Shown here: positions 54,955 through 56,396 of the stretch, piece after piece | How the letters are laid out: each line of letters opens with the position of its first letter | Numbering within the stretch: position 1 is the first letter of the stretch | Origin: Escherichia coli | GTDB taxonomy: Bacteria > Pseudomonadota > Gammaproteobacteria > Enterobacterales > Enterobacteriaceae | DNA: 64,000 bases | NCBI RefSeq assembly: GCF_029227855.1 | Contig: NZ_CP074356.1 | Reading direction: 5' to 3' (one strand) | The notes under the pieces: model-generated | Told to the model about the DNA's origin: nothing | Seen by the model: the letters and a program-made list of their open reading frames with translations, nothing else | Database searches by the model: none | Position numbers and translations under genes: made by a program

Positions 54955-55170
54955 ATGGACCAGATGGAAAAAATCACAACAGGTGTGTCATACACCACGT
55001 CAGCGGTGGGAACGGGCTACTGGTTCCTGCAGTTGCTGGACAGGGTTTCCCCGTCTCAGTGGGCGGCAATAGGCGTGCTGGGGAGTCTGCTGTTTGGGCT
55101 GCTGACATATCTGACTAACCTGTATTTCAAAATCAGAGAGGACCGTCGTAAGGCGGCACGGGGAGAGTAA
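54955..55170 (+). CDS. Class II holin (phage 21 S-like pinholin, 71 aa) with dual-start motif
   Basis: [71 protein letters not shown]; two TM segments; Met1 and Met4. Confidence 0.85.
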
Positions 55171-55174
55171 TTCA

Positions 55175-55519
55175 ATGACTCAAAACTATGAACTGATTGT
55201 GAAAGGGATCCGCAATTTTGAGAATAAAGTTACGGTAACTTTAGCATTACAGGACAAAGAACGCTTTGACGGTGAAATTTTTGACCTGGACATCTCGCTG
55301 GACCGTGTTGAAGGTGCTGCGCTGGAGTTTTATGAGGCAGCGGCCAGAAGGAGCATCAGACAGGTCTTCCTGGATGTCGCTGCCGGGTTATGTGAAGGGG
55401 ATGAGCAGTCGCCGGAAAAGCGCCCCGTAATTTTAGAGGCGCAGAATGTATGGATAACCTACAAAGGAAAGCTACCGGGAAGGATTACTGGTTCCCTGAA
55501 GACTCCGCCGAAATGGTAG
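55175..55519 (+). CDS. Hypothetical protein between holin and endolysin (possibly YdfR/DUF1327-like)
   Basis: 114-aa ORF starting 5 nt after holin stop; family assignment is from memory only. Confidence 0.5.
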   Translation: MTQNYELIVKGIRNFENKVTVTLALQDKERFDGEIFDLDISLDRVEGAALEFYEAAARRSIRQVFLDVAAGLCEGDEQSPEKRPVILEAQNVWITYKGKLPGRITGSLKTPPKW

Positions 55520-55757
55520 TTTTGCCAGCATAATTTTCTTCCAGCAATGCCGCCAGCCACTTGAAAGAATTTTGTTGTTCCTGGGACCATTTGGGGTTGC
55601 GTGATTCAAAATGAATGGATGCCAGCGTTGGCAGCATTTGCTCCCTGGGAATTGATAAGGCCAGATGTGAAAATGCAACAGTGAGGGCATTTACATCATC
55701 CCGAAGCCTGAAAATGCAGTCGAGCAACTCCTGTAGAGAAATGGTGCTATTGTCCAT
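55485..55757 (-). CDS. Hypothetical minus-strand ORF (90 aa) inside lysis cassette
   Basis: Track ORF convergent with and overlapping the 3' end of ORF 55175-55519; coding status uncertain. Confidence 0.3.
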   Translation of the reverse strand: MDNSTISLQELLDCIFRLRDDVNALTVAFSHLALSIPREQMLPTLASIHFESRNPKWSQEQQNSFKWLAALLEENYAGKTTISAESSGNQ

Positions 55758-55862
55758 AAATAATCCTCTTGATTGTCTTTACCTTTTCCCCGCCTGATTC
55801 AACAGGCCGGGACAGATAAACATATCCAGGGTTCAGAAACCGATAAATCCTGATAAATATCC

Positions 55863-56396
55863 ATGAACGCAAAAATCAAATACGGCCTGTCAGCTGCAGT
55901 TCTGGCGCTGATTGGAGCAGGCGCATCAGCTCCTCAGATACTTGACCAGTTTCTGGATGAAAAAGAGGGTAACCACACTACGGCATACCGCGATGGTTCC
56001 GGCAACTGGACCATCTGTCGGGGGGCCACGATGGTGGATGGAAAACCCGTTTTTCCCGGTATGAAACTGTCGAAGGAAAAATGCGACCAGGTCAACGCCA
56101 TTGAGCGTGATAAGGCGCTGGCATGGGTGGAGAAAAACATCAAAGTGCCATTGAGCGAACCCCAGAAAGCGGGGATCGCGTCATTCTGTCCGTACAACAT
56201 TGGTCCCGGTAAGTGTTTCCCGTCGACGTTTTATAAACGAATTAATGCAGGTGATCGCAGGGGAGCGTGTGAGGCGATTCGCTGGTGGATTAAGGACGGT
56301 GGCAGAGACTGCCGTATTCGTTCAAACAACTGCTACGGTCAGGTATCCCGTCGTGACCAGGAGAGCGCGCTGGCGTGCTGGGGTATCGACAGATAA
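55863..56396 (+). CDS. SAR endolysin (T4-lysozyme family with N-terminal signal-anchor-release domain)
   Basis: 177-aa ORF; N-terminal Gly/Ala-rich weakly hydrophobic segment YGLSAAVLALIGAGASA, then lysozyme-like domain. Confidence 0.85.
   Translation: MNAKIKYGLSAAVLALIGAGASAPQILDQFLDEKEGNHTTAYRDGSGNWTICRGATMVDGKPVFPGMKLSKEKCDQVNAIERDKALAWVEKNIKVPLSEPQKAGIASFCPYNIGPGKCFPSTFYKRINAGDRRGACEAIRWWIKDGGRDCRIRSNNCYGQVSRRDQESALACWGIDR

What the first reader, a model, noticed from the sequence alone, without database searches (positions are those of the whole stretch)
54955..56396. Pinholin / SAR-endolysin pair with dual-start holin
The holin has two TM segments and a Met1/Met4 dual start (MDQMEK), consistent with holin/antiholin production. 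The endolysin has an N-terminal signal-anchor-release-like segment instead of a cleavable signal peptide. This is the phage-21-type lysis strategy.
Basis: established knowledge. Interest (0 to 1): 0.3.

Follow-up and report, generated by a model that had tools for sequence, protein, structure and literature searches.

The report
Prophage pinholin and membrane-tethered endolysin cassette
This is the ordinary, already well-known cell-bursting gene set of an E. coli lambda-like prophage: a small-hole holin, a membrane-tethered lysozyme and two outer-membrane disruptors, nearly identical to the set in Shiga-toxin phages.

Summary
The ORFs are real and at the stated ends. S (54955-55170, 71 aa) is a P21-holin-S family protein: Pfam 9e-33, 97% identical to phage 933W S, 80% to S21-type holins. 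R (55863-56396, 177 aa) is a T4-type lysozyme with the triad E35/D44/T50. It is 92% identical to 933W R, which has been used experimentally as a SAR endolysin, and 32% to R21/RrrD.

The phage-21-type strategy is therefore supported, and it has already been predicted in print for this lineage. Three corrections apply.

1. S and R are not adjacent. A ydfR/DUF1327 gene and an antisense 90-aa ORF occupy the 692 bp between them. The cassette continues outside the interval with a 45-aa membrane ORF and the Rz/Rz1 spanins (56695-57159).
2. Only TMD2 of the holin is clearly hydrophobic. TMD1 is a weak, SAR-like segment, exactly as in S21.
3. Met1/Met4 is conserved family-wide, but here the extension is Met-Asp-Gln. 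The Lys that makes S21-71 an antiholin is replaced by an acidic residue, so antiholin production is not supported by the known charge mechanism.

Non-cleavage of the R N-terminus is inferred from A21-S22-A23|Pro24, a conserved hydrophobic core and the AF2 model. It was not tested.

Verdict: ordinary and already known. Low interest.

The parts
51729..52550 (+). Q antiterminator of the prophage. This is context: it drives late-operon read-through into the lysis genes.
   Evidence: Pfam PF03589 Antiterm E 5.8e-54. RefSeq calls the identical locus 'antitermination protein'.
54888..54916 (+). Terminator-like hairpin plus T-run, ending 38 nt upstream of the holin start. An equivalent hairpin sits upstream of 933W S.
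   Evidence: Terminator scan. Fold of 54860-54925: -21 kcal/mol, z -2.8. 933W sequence.
54932..54954 (+). Translation-initiation region of S. GGGAG lies 7 nt before ATG1 and a GGGG run lies 10 nt before ATG4. A weak 5-bp hairpin overlaps the GGGAG.
   Evidence: Sequence and RNA folds. The hairpin is weak and not statistically compelling.
54955..55170 (+). S, a class II (P21-type) pinholin of 71 aa. Met1 is at 54955 and Met4 at 54964. TMD1 is residues 7-28 (54973-55038) and is weakly hydrophobic and SAR-like. TMD2 is residues 36-58 (55060-55128) and carries G40xxxS44xxxG48. The C-tail has net charge +3.
   Evidence: Pfam PF04971 E 9e-33; PHROG holin; 97.2% identical to 933W S and 80.3% to EssD/S21-like; hydropathy and charges.
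55175..55519 (+). ydfR-family gene (DUF1327, 114 aa) inserted between holin and endolysin. Its role in lysis is unknown.
   Evidence: Pfam PF07041 E 6.9e-44. The first ~69 aa match K-12 YdfR and the C-terminus differs. The same slot is occupied in Qin and in Stx2a phage EH2201.
55485..55757 (-). Antisense 90-aa ORF of unknown function, overlapping the ydfR 3' end by 35 nt. It is an accessory insertion, not a known lysis gene.
   Evidence: PHROG 2411, full length, E 6.6e-54. Annotated as hypothetical in RefSeq and in phage vB_EcoS-783R2. Found in only 3 phage records. No Pfam, NCBIfam or PADLOC hit.
55863..56396 (+). R, a SAR-type endolysin (RrrQ/933W-R type muramidase, 177 aa). The n-region carries K4 and K6. 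The SAR-like segment is Y7-L27 (55881-55943). Catalytic residues are E35 (55965-55967), D44 (55992-55994) and T50 (56010-56012). It has 8 Cys, none in the SAR segment.
   Evidence: Pfam PF00959 E 4e-24; PDB sequence hits to R21 3HDE and RrrD 4ZPU that include the N-terminus; 92.1% identical to 933W R and 91.5% to RrrQ; AF2 model and Foldseek; composition; conservation.
56487..56519 (+). Terminator-like G+C-rich hairpin between R and Rz.
   Evidence: Terminator scan.
56556..56693 (+). Small single-TM ORF of 45 aa. Its stop lies 1 nt before the Rz start codon. Function unknown, and probably not lysis-specific.
   Evidence: PHROG 6632 E 1.4e-29. tblastn finds it in 53 phage records, mostly unannotated. 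It sits in the same slot in Salmonella phage SPN3UB but inside tail/baseplate modules in SEN34 and a Pseudomonas phage.
56695..57159 (+). Rz i-spanin (154 aa): N-terminal TMD at residues 4-26, a periplasmic coiled-coil region, and Cys99 and Cys152.
   Evidence: Pfam PF03245 E 1.4e-52; PHROG 13; hydropathy; Cys positions.
56915..57097 (+). Rz1 o-spanin (60 aa), embedded in the +1 frame of Rz. The lipobox is V-V-G-C20, Thr is at +2, there is a Pro-rich stretch, and Cys29 is present.
   Evidence: Pfam PF06085 E 5.4e-20; PHROG 3198; sequence.

Best explanation
This is the late-operon lysis cassette of a lambdoid E. coli prophage. The prophage carries an integrase next to tRNA-Ser, a Q antiterminator and lambda-type terminase and portal genes. 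The cassette is of the Stx-phage/Qin type and uses the phage-21 strategy.

Proposed mechanism, with each step marked as shown or inferred:
1. After induction, Q-modified RNA polymerase reads through the hairpin terminators into S, ydfR, R, the small ORF and Rz/Rz1. This is inferred from gene order.
2. R is exported by Sec but stays tethered to the inner membrane, enzymatically inactive, by its weakly hydrophobic N-terminal segment Y7-L27. This is inferred from 92% identity to 933W R and from homology to R21.
3. S accumulates in the inner membrane with an N-in/C-in topology. Its weakly hydrophobic TMD1 leaves the bilayer, and TMD2 oligomerises through its GxxxSxxxG face into nanometre-scale pinholes that collapse the proton-motive force. 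This is inferred from 80% identity to S21-type holins and a near-identical TMD2.
4. Depolarisation releases the SAR segment of R, which refolds into the muramidase body and activates the E35/D44/T50 site. No Cys is present in the SAR segment, so the switch should be R21-like and conformational, not a P1-Lyz-like disulfide exchange.
5. After the peptidoglycan is degraded, the Rz/Rz1 spanin complex disrupts the outer membrane.

Both Met1 and Met4 may be used as starts. However, the 3-residue extension Met-Asp-Gln carries no basic residue, so the longer product is not expected to act as a charge-anchored antiholin like S21-71.
For: Family assignments:
- PF04971, PF00959, PF03245 and PF06085 all score far above their cut-offs. 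PHROG lysis categories agree.

Holin:
- 97.2% identical to 933W S and 80.3% to EssD and an S21-like sequence. TMD2 differs at only 1-2 positions.
- TMD1 is 50% Gly/Ala/Ser/Thr with mean KD 0.71, as in the S21 type.
- The C-tail has net charge +3.

Endolysin:
- 92.1% identical to 933W R. That protein is used as a SAR endolysin: it causes little cell rounding alone and much more with the Mu releasin gp25 (PMC9239132).
- phmmer aligns residues 9-174 with residues 5-163 of full-length R21 (3HDE) and RrrD (4ZPU).
- E35, D44 and T50 fit the E-X8-D-X5-T triad.
- The AF2 model has pLDDT 81.5, with residues 11-30 above 90 and folded as helix 11-18, a turn, then helix 23-35.
- Foldseek aligns 181 columns to full-length R21 (TMq 0.66). 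It aligns only 140 columns to SAR-less R21, 3HDF (TMq 0.52).
- The only canonical A-x-A site is A21-S22-A23 followed by Pro24. All 50 subfamily homologues carry Pro at position 22 or 24. Pro at +1 blocks signal peptidase I (PMC8385771).
- The hydrophobic core 9-23 is as conserved as the N-terminal half of the catalytic domain (top-residue frequency 0.83 versus 0.86). The n-region is not (0.40).

Context and prior literature:
- Integrase, repressor, RusA, Q, Nu1/gpA and portal genes are all present.
- The same cassette is annotated in 100%-identical E. coli chromosomes and in isolated phages.
- A pinholin plus SAR endolysin arrangement has been predicted for Stx phages (PMC8136144; PMC10462455).
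Against: - No experiment exists on these exact alleles.
- No signal-peptide or TM predictor could be run.
- By the -3/-1 rule an alternative cleavage site, A19-G20-A21|S22, is not excluded in this allele.
- The R SAR-like segment is somewhat less hydrophobic than that of R21: best 17-mer KD 1.69 versus 2.29.
- R shares only 32% identity with R21 and has four extra cysteines and loop insertions, so its activation details may differ.
- AF2 may partly reproduce the R21 structure from its training data.
- S and R are separated by two genes of unknown function, and an antisense gene lies between them. Stoichiometry and timing could therefore differ from phage 21.
- Some neighbouring prophage genes are pseudogenes in the identical RefSeq locus, namely iraM and DUF1737. 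Expression in this host is therefore not shown.
Confidence: 0.85

Rival explanations
1. The endolysin N-terminus is an ordinary cleavable Sec signal peptide. R would then be secreted as a soluble mature enzyme and controlled in some other way, as turned out to be the case for T4 RI.
For: The layout looks like a signal peptide: an n-region with K4 and K6, a short h-region (LSAAVLALI), and a small-residue c-region (GAGASA). A19-G20-A21|S22 satisfies the -3/-1 rule. T4 RI was long mis-assigned as a SAR protein (PMC8385771).
Against: - The canonical A-x-A site is followed by Pro24, and every one of 50 homologues keeps a Pro at position 22 or 24. Pro at +1 blocks SPase I.
- The hydrophobic core is conserved like the catalytic domain.
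- AF2 models residues 11-30 at pLDDT above 90, and the model superposes better on full-length R21 than on truncated R21.
- 933W R, 92% identical with a near-identical N-terminus, causes little wall damage alone and is potentiated by a membrane 'releasin'.
- A constitutively secreted active muramidase would be lethal before virion assembly.
Confidence: 0.08
2. One reading: Met1 and Met4 give an antiholin (71 aa) and a holin (68 aa) that work as S21-71 and S21-68 do.
For: - M-x-x-M is present in all 97 holin cluster representatives that include the region. In five of these the spacing is the shorter M-K-M.
- An SD-like GGGAG lies 7 nt before ATG1 and a G-run lies 10 nt before ATG4. The same layout is seen in essD.
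- Hairpins overlapping the SD are predicted in both lineages.
- Some phage records label the gene 'holin/antiholin component S'.
Against: - The antiholin property of S21-71 is attributed to the extra basic residue.
- The operational definition of a dual-start motif requires a basic residue between the starts.
- This allele has Asp2-Gln3, giving an N-tail net charge of -1 against +1 in the S21 type.
- In the family, 52 representatives have a basic extension, 41 a neutral one and 4 an acidic one. The neutral and acidic types form the 933W/window lineage.
- Negative N-terminal charge speeds S21-68 pore formation.
- Residue 2 varies freely in this lineage: Y, D, N and H are all seen.
Confidence: 0.25
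3. The cassette is a silent remnant in a decaying prophage and does nothing in this host.
For: In the identical RefSeq locus several upstream late-region genes are pseudogenes: iraM has an internal stop and the DUF1737 gene is partial. Homologous cassettes in K-12 sit in the cryptic prophages DLP12 and Qin.
Against: - S, ydfR, R, Rz and Rz1 are all intact. Q, integrase, terminase and portal genes are also intact.
- An identical holin, and a cassette about 90% identical, occur in phages recovered as virions (vB_EcoS-716R1 and vB_EcoS-783R2).
- The window ends inside the morphogenesis genes, so completeness of the prophage cannot be judged.
Confidence: 0.15
4. S is a canonical large-hole holin, and the R N-terminal segment is irrelevant to control.
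For: None specific. Only the general fact that holin function cannot be read from sequence.
Against: - At 71 aa with two hydrophobic segments, S is not the 3-TMD class I architecture.
- It is 80% identical to S21-type holins, and TMD2 (the pinhole-lining helix in S21) is nearly identical.
- It is linked to a secretory endolysin.
Confidence: 0.03

Closest known systems
Phage 21 lysis cassette S21 (S21-68/S21-71 pinholin/antiholin), R21 (SAR endolysin; PDB 3HDE/3HDF), Rz/Rz1, and its near-copy in K-12 DLP12 (essD-rrrD-rzpD/rzoD)
   Same: Same Pfam holin family. The holin has the same 71-aa length and Met1/Met4 spacing, 80% identity, and a near-identical TMD2 with GxxxSxxxG. TMD1 is SAR-like. The endolysin is a T4-type muramidase with E35/D44/T50 at the same residue numbers and an N-terminal weakly hydrophobic segment without Cys. 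Rz carries an embedded Rz1.
   Different: The holin extension is Met-Asp-Gln rather than Met-Lys-Ser, so it has no basic residue. The endolysin is only 32% identical to R21/RrrD and has 8 Cys rather than 4, plus loop insertions. S and R do not overlap or abut: they are separated by ydfR and an antisense ORF, and a small TM ORF precedes Rz.
Stx2 phage 933W lysis genes S and R (and other Stx-converting phages)
   Same: S is 97.2% identical and R 92.1% identical, with a near-identical SAR-like segment (MSRKLRYGLSAAVLALIAAGASAP versus MNAKIKYGLSAAVLALIGAGASAP). Rz is 75% identical. The terminator-like hairpin upstream of S is shared. Both have a non-basic holin extension, MYQ versus MDQ. 933W R has been handled experimentally as a SAR endolysin. 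Stx phages have been predicted to use a pinholin plus SAR endolysin.
   Different: In 933W, S and R are adjacent and an ant gene lies between R and Rz. There are no stx or nanS-p genes upstream here. Residue 2 is Asp here and Tyr in 933W. Some Stx2a phages (EH2201) do share the S-ydfR-R-small ORF-Rz order.
E. coli K-12 Qin cryptic prophage essQ-ydfR-rrrQ-rzpQ/rzoQ
   Same: Same gene order, holin then YdfR then lysozyme. RrrQ is 91.5% identical with an identical SAR-like core. RefSeq names the window gene rrrQ.
   Different: EssQ has the basic MKSM start. K-12 ydfR abuts rrrQ, with no antisense ORF. The YdfR C-terminus differs after about residue 69. Qin uses a different, DUF2514-type Rz.
Phage P1 Lyz (PDB 1XJT), the first SAR endolysin
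   Same: Same fold class and the same N-terminal SAR concept. It is a Foldseek hit at E 5.8e-4.
   Different: P1 Lyz activation uses a Cys in the SAR domain for disulfide isomerisation (established knowledge: Xu et al. 2004/2005). The window R has no Cys in residues 1-51, and sequence identity is about 16%.

Membership tests
P21 holin S family (class II holin / pinholin, Pfam PF04971) | Significant match to the family profile over its full length | tested here: met
   PF04971: E 9e-33, 112.5 bits against a cut-off of 26, covering profile positions 1-63 of 64. 80.3% identity to EssD and to an S21-like sequence.
P21 holin S family (class II holin / pinholin, Pfam PF04971) | Small protein with two TMDs, N-in/C-in, and a highly basic C-terminal tail | tested here: met
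   Exactly two uncharged stretches, 7-28 and 31-58. The C-tail has net charge +3 and the loop net 0. No dedicated topology predictor was available. TMD1 would probably be missed by a plain hydropathy threshold (best 17-mer KD 0.54).
P21 holin S family (class II holin / pinholin, Pfam PF04971) | TMD1 is a weakly hydrophobic SAR-type helix close to the N-terminus; TMD2 carries the glycine-zipper/hydrophilic face that lines the pinhole | tested here: met
   TMD1 is 50% Gly/Ala/Ser/Thr with mean KD 0.71, against 0.52-0.70 in the S21 type. G40, S44, G48, T51, T54 and N55 are all conserved. The functional meaning of these residues comes from published S21 work and was not tested here.
P21 holin S family (class II holin / pinholin, Pfam PF04971) | Dual-start motif encoding an antiholin: two start codons separated by codons that include a basic residue | tested here: not met
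   Met1 and Met4 are present, but the intervening residues are Asp-Gln. For the definition and the role of the basic residue. Family survey: 52 basic, 41 neutral and 4 acidic extensions. This lowers the claim 'makes an S21-71-like antiholin', not the claim 'is a pinholin'.
P21 holin S family (class II holin / pinholin, Pfam PF04971) | Forms nanometre pinholes that depolarise the membrane but do not pass folded endolysin | not testable with these tools
   Requires expression and complementation assays.
SAR (signal-anchor-release) endolysin, R21 type | T4-lysozyme-like muramidase domain with the catalytic triad E-X8-D-X5-T | tested here: met
   PF00959 E 4e-24. E35, D44 and T50 are present; D44 is invariant and E35 and T50 are at least 90% conserved in 51 sequences. 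Foldseek and phmmer hit R21, RrrD and P22 lysozyme.
SAR (signal-anchor-release) endolysin, R21 type | N-terminal segment: 1-3 basic residues, then a TMD-length uncharged stretch rich in weakly hydrophobic residues (Gly/Ala/Ser/Thr) | tested here: met
   K4 and K6, then Y7-L27 (21 residues, 52% GAST, mean KD 1.43). The R21-type RrrD has 24 residues, 62% GAST and KD 1.39. The internal control, the Rz TMD, is 26% GAST with KD 2.15. The criterion is as described in PMC9239132.
SAR (signal-anchor-release) endolysin, R21 type | The N-terminal segment is not removed by signal peptidase | tested here: inconclusive
   In favour: A21-S22-A23|P24 has Pro at +1, and Pro is at position 22 or 24 in 50 of 50 homologues (rule). 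The AF2 model and Foldseek include the segment in the fold. Against: A19-G20-A21|S22 is not excluded by the -3/-1 rule. SignalP was not available.
SAR (signal-anchor-release) endolysin, R21 type | Sec export, PMF-dependent membrane tethering, and release by a pinholin or depolarisation | not testable with these tools
   Only indirect evidence: 933W R (92% identical) is used as a SAR endolysin and is released by Mu gp25.
SAR (signal-anchor-release) endolysin, R21 type | No cysteine in the SAR segment (this separates the R21-type conformational switch from the P1 Lyz / Lyz103 disulfide types) | tested here: met
   Cys at 52, 74, 109, 118, 136, 150, 157 and 172 only.
Two-component spanin Rz/Rz1 (embedded architecture) | i-spanin with an N-terminal TMD, plus an o-spanin lipoprotein encoded in the +1 frame inside it | tested here: met
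   PF03245 E 1.4e-52 and PF06085 E 5.4e-20. Rz TMD at residues 4-26. Rz1 has the lipobox VVGC20 and lies within Rz at 56915-57097.

The most novel reading that the evidence does not exclude
In the 933W/Stx-phage/window lineage of P21-type pinholins, the two Met codons are kept but the basic residue between them has been lost. The extension is M-[Y/D/N/H/F]-Q, which accounts for 45 of 97 cluster representatives, and here it is acidic. This lineage may therefore make no charge-anchored antiholin. Lysis timing, and in Stx phages the timing of toxin release, would then be set in another way: by start-codon partition through mRNA structure, by a charge-independent effect of the longer N-terminus, or by an accessory gene in the cassette such as ydfR or the small membrane ORF.
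Probability: 0.3. Interest if true: 0.3.

Novelty: already known. Interest (0 to 1): 0.1.

Why it matters
It matters little beyond correct annotation. This cassette decides when and how an induced prophage bursts its host, and the same genes gate Shiga-toxin release in the closely related Stx phages. SAR endolysins and pinholins are also of interest as antimicrobial and nanopore tools. The one point worth a specialist's glance is that a large, medically relevant branch of the S21 family keeps the two-Met arrangement without the cationic residue on which the textbook antiholin mechanism rests. No paper in the searched library addresses this.

Tried and rejected
- Primary papers could not be read. 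The pinholin and SAR papers (Drew 2019, Ahammad 2019, Sun 2009, Xu 2004) are not held. Text searches for the S21 peptide sequence found nothing. I therefore used K-12 EssD/RrrD, a database sequence with the S21 hallmarks (YWFLQW, LDQVSPSQ) and the PDB R21 entries as comparators.
- NCBIfam gave no specific model for any cassette protein. The only hit was a sub-threshold GTA endolysin match. PADLOC gave nothing for ydfR, orf90, the small ORF or neighbouring genes.
- I considered the 45-aa membrane ORF in front of Rz as a separate antiholin or releasin. I rejected it as unsupported, because its homologues sit in tail and baseplate modules of unrelated phages.
- I considered the upstream GTG at 54850 (a 106-aa ORF) as the holin start. 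I rejected it because the extension runs through the terminator-like hairpin at 54888-54916.
- RNA structure around the starts was examined. SD-overlapping hairpins are predicted in both lineages, but z-scores are weak (-2.3, -1.1, -0.95), so no claim is made.
- I checked whether the flanks of the 100%-identical RefSeq locus could be transferred by a fixed offset. They could not, because of an indel, so the context was re-annotated directly from the window.
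Full report
**Observation**

The bases at 54955-54972 read ATG GAC CAG ATG GAA AAA and open a 71-codon ORF ending at 55170. 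A 177-codon ORF runs 55863-56396. Both are genuine family members. The first matches Pfam PF04971 'Bacteriophage P21 holin S' at E 9e-33 over 63 of 64 profile positions. The second matches PF00959 'Phage lysozyme' at E 4e-24. PHROGs places both in the lysis category.

The interval is not a contiguous pair, however. The 692 bp between the two genes hold a DUF1327/YdfR-family gene (55175-55519, E 6.9e-44) and a conserved antisense 90-aa ORF (55485-55757, PHROG 2411, E 6.6e-54). The cassette also continues beyond the interval. A 45-aa single-TM ORF (56556-56693) comes next, followed by the Rz i-spanin (56695-57159) with the Rz1 lipoprotein embedded in its +1 frame (56915-57097).

**Source and context**

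The 2.4 kb around the cassette is 100% identical to several E. coli chromosomes and 99.9% identical to UTI89. RefSeq annotates it there as class II holin, YdfR family protein, hypothetical protein, rrrQ lysozyme and lysis protein.

In the window the cassette lies in a lambdoid prophage. It has an integrase next to tRNA-Ser, an HTH repressor, RusA and a Q antiterminator (51729-52550). Two tRNAs come next, then the lysis genes, then Nu1/gpA terminase and a lambda-type portal.

Terminator-like hairpins lie just upstream of S (54888-54916) and between R and Rz (56487-56519). This is the expected layout for a Q-dependent late operon. That expression depends on Q is inferred, not shown.

**The holin**

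- It is 97.2% identical to S of Stx2 phage 933W and 80.3% identical to K-12 EssD and to an S21-like database sequence.
- An identical protein is annotated in phage vB_EcoS-716R1.
- Charged residues leave exactly two uncharged stretches, 7-28 and 31-58, so three TMDs are impossible.
- Only the second stretch is strongly hydrophobic (best 17-mer mean KD 1.99).
- The first stretch is weak (0.54; 50% Gly/Ala/Ser/Thr), with the same values in the S21-type proteins. This is the known signature of the S21 pinholin, whose TMD1 is a SAR-type helix that leaves the membrane.
- TMD2 differs from the S21 type at one or two positions and keeps G40, S44, G48, T51, T54 and N55.
- The C-tail has net charge +3, consistent with C-in.

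The 'two TM' observation thus holds in the S21 sense. A plain hydropathy predictor might report one.

**The dual start**

I surveyed 120 cluster representatives of the family. All 97 that include the region have two Met codons: M-x-x-M in 92 and M-K-M in 5. The arrangement is clearly conserved and not a chance feature.

The content of the extension splits the family:
- 52 representatives have a basic residue (MKS, MYR, MLR, MMK, MHR, MKM);
- 41 are neutral (mostly MYQ, the 933W type);
- 4 are acidic (MDQ, the window allele).

Within the 933W/window lineage, residue 2 is seen as Y, D, N or H.

The literature held here attributes the antiholin behaviour of S21-71 to the extra basic residue (PMC9636201; PMC13056207). 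It also scores a dual-start motif as two starts with a basic residue between them (PMC9671378). Systematic substitution of the S21-68 N-terminus showed that positive charge delays pore formation and negative charge favours it (bioRxiv 10.1101/2021.04.20.440580).

Here the N-tail has net charge -1 from Met1 and 0 from Met4. In the S21 type the values are +1 and 0.

Both starts have plausible ribosome-binding sequences. GGGAG lies 7 nt before ATG1 and a G-run lies 10 nt before ATG4, the same layout as in essD. Weak SD-overlapping hairpins are predicted in both lineages. Two products are therefore possible. The inference that the longer one is an antiholin is not supported by the known mechanism.

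**The endolysin**

- It is 92.1% identical to 933W R, 91.5% to K-12 RrrQ and 31.7% to RrrD, the DLP12 near-copy of R21.
- phmmer aligns residues 9-174 with residues 5-163 of full-length R21 (3HDE) and RrrD (4ZPU), so the alignment includes the N-terminal segment.
- E35, D44 and T50 fit the E-X8-D-X5-T triad at the same residue numbers as R21.
- The N-terminus has K4 and K6, then a 21-residue uncharged stretch, Y7-L27, that is 52% Gly/Ala/Ser/Thr. This resembles RrrD (62%) and is unlike the bona fide TMD of Rz (26%). It matches the description of SAR domains in PMC9239132.
- There is no Cys before residue 52. An R21-type conformational switch is therefore more likely than the P1-Lyz disulfide mechanism. 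This last step rests on established knowledge.

**Is the N-terminus cleaved?**

I could not run SignalP, so this was tested only indirectly.

- The only canonical A-x-A site, A21-S22-A23, is followed by Pro24. In 50 of 50 subfamily homologues a Pro occupies position 22 or 24 (GAPAS or GASAP). Pro at +1 blocks signal peptidase I (PMC8385771).
- The hydrophobic core 9-23 is as conserved as the adjoining catalytic domain (top-residue frequency 0.83 versus 0.86). The n-region is not (0.40).
- AlphaFold2 on a 51-sequence alignment gave pLDDT 81.5. Residues 11-30 score above 90 and fold as helix 11-18, a turn, then helix 23-35 leading into E35.
- Foldseek aligned 181 columns to full-length R21 (TMq 0.66) but only 140 columns to the SAR-less R21 (TMq 0.52). 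This suggests the segment is modelled as part of the fold.
- 933W R, whose N-terminus is nearly identical, is a laboratory SAR endolysin. It causes little wall damage alone and much more with the Mu releasin gp25 (PMC9239132).

Against this, A19-G20-A21|S22 satisfies the -3/-1 rule in this allele. The T4 RI case shows that SAR assignments can be wrong. I put the cleavable-signal rival at about 0.08.

**Mechanism**

The best-supported account is the phage-21 pathway:
1. R is exported by Sec and held inactive in the inner membrane by its SAR-like segment.
2. S accumulates and triggers, forming pinholes that collapse the membrane potential.
3. R is released and refolds into an active muramidase.
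4. Rz/Rz1 then disrupt the outer membrane.

Everything after the sequence assignments is inferred from homologues. Nothing was shown for these alleles.

**Comparison and novelty**

The closest relatives are the Stx-phage cassettes, in particular 933W and the Stx2a phage EH2201. EH2201 shares the order S, ydfR, R, small ORF, Rz. The Qin prophage essQ-ydfR-rrrQ is also close. Phage 21 and DLP12 are the mechanistic prototype.

Prediction of a pinholin plus SAR endolysin for this lineage is already in print (PMC8136144; PMC10462455). The finding is therefore ordinary and already known.

The only point of mild interest is the non-basic, here acidic, two-Met N-terminus of this large branch of the family.

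**Side observations**

- K-12 YdfR residues 1-72 bind the RNase E catalytic domain and may bind RNA (PMC13232886). The window protein shares that part but has a different C-terminus.
- The antisense orf90 occurs in only three phage records.
- The 45-aa membrane ORF is conserved in 53 phage records. It occupies tail modules in some of them, so it is probably not a lysis factor.
- R has eight cysteines, against four in R21.

Noticed in passing
window 56556-56693 (+): A 45-aa single-TM ORF ([45 protein letters not shown]) whose stop lies 1 nt before the Rz start. It matches PHROG 6632 and is found by tblastn in 53 phage records, where it is mostly unannotated. It occupies the same slot in Salmonella phage SPN3UB but sits in tail/baseplate modules in SEN34 and Pseudomonas phage YMC11/02/R656. 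933W has a different unannotated 49-aa hydrophobic ORF in the same slot (L005 7421-7570).
   Followed up: partly
window 55175-55519 (+): A ydfR/DUF1327 gene lies between holin and endolysin, as in Qin and some Stx2a phages. The first ~69 residues match K-12 YdfR, whose residues 1-72 were recently reported to bind the RNase E catalytic domain and possibly RNA (PMC13232886). The C-terminal 45 residues are unrelated to the K-12 protein. Its role in a lysis cassette is unexplained.
   Followed up: partly
window 55485-55757 (-): A 90-aa ORF on the opposite strand inside the late operon, overlapping the ydfR 3' end by 35 nt. It matches PHROG 2411 over its full length (E 6.6e-54) and has no Pfam, NCBIfam or PADLOC hit. 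It is present in only 3 phage records. It accounts for about 290 extra nt relative to Stx2a phage EH2201.
   Followed up: partly
window 55863-56396 (+), residues 109-157 of R: The RrrQ/933W-type endolysin has eight cysteines (52, 74, 109, 118, 136, 150, 157, 172), against four in R21/RrrD. The four extra ones lie in loop insertions that the AF2 model predicts with low confidence (pLDDT 60-70). They could form periplasmic disulfides. Any regulatory meaning is unknown.
   Followed up: no
window 55923-55937 (R codons 21-25) and alignment A1: All 50 RrrQ-type homologues carry a proline at position 22 or position 24, never both and never neither (GAPAS/T or GASAP). It flanks the only A-x-A motif of the N-terminal segment.
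   Followed up: yes
window 54958-54960 (holin codon 2): In the 933W/window holin lineage, residue 2 is seen as Tyr, Asp, Asn or His, while Met1, Gln3 and Met4 stay fixed. The predicted mRNA helix that contains ATG1 also includes the first base of this codon.
   Followed up: partly
window 53863-54198 (-) and 54447-54647 (+); locus L001: Between the Q/tRNA region and the holin, where Stx phages carry stx and nanS-p, this prophage carries other cargo. RefSeq marks an iraM-like ORF as a pseudogene with an internal stop, and a DUF1737 gene as partial.
   Followed up: no
window 8801-13109 and 37969-38044: Four tRNA-Asn (GTT) genes lie in the first 38 kb of the window. A 2685-aa ORF on the minus strand (29674-37731) sits just upstream of the prophage attachment region. 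Neither was examined.
   Followed up: no
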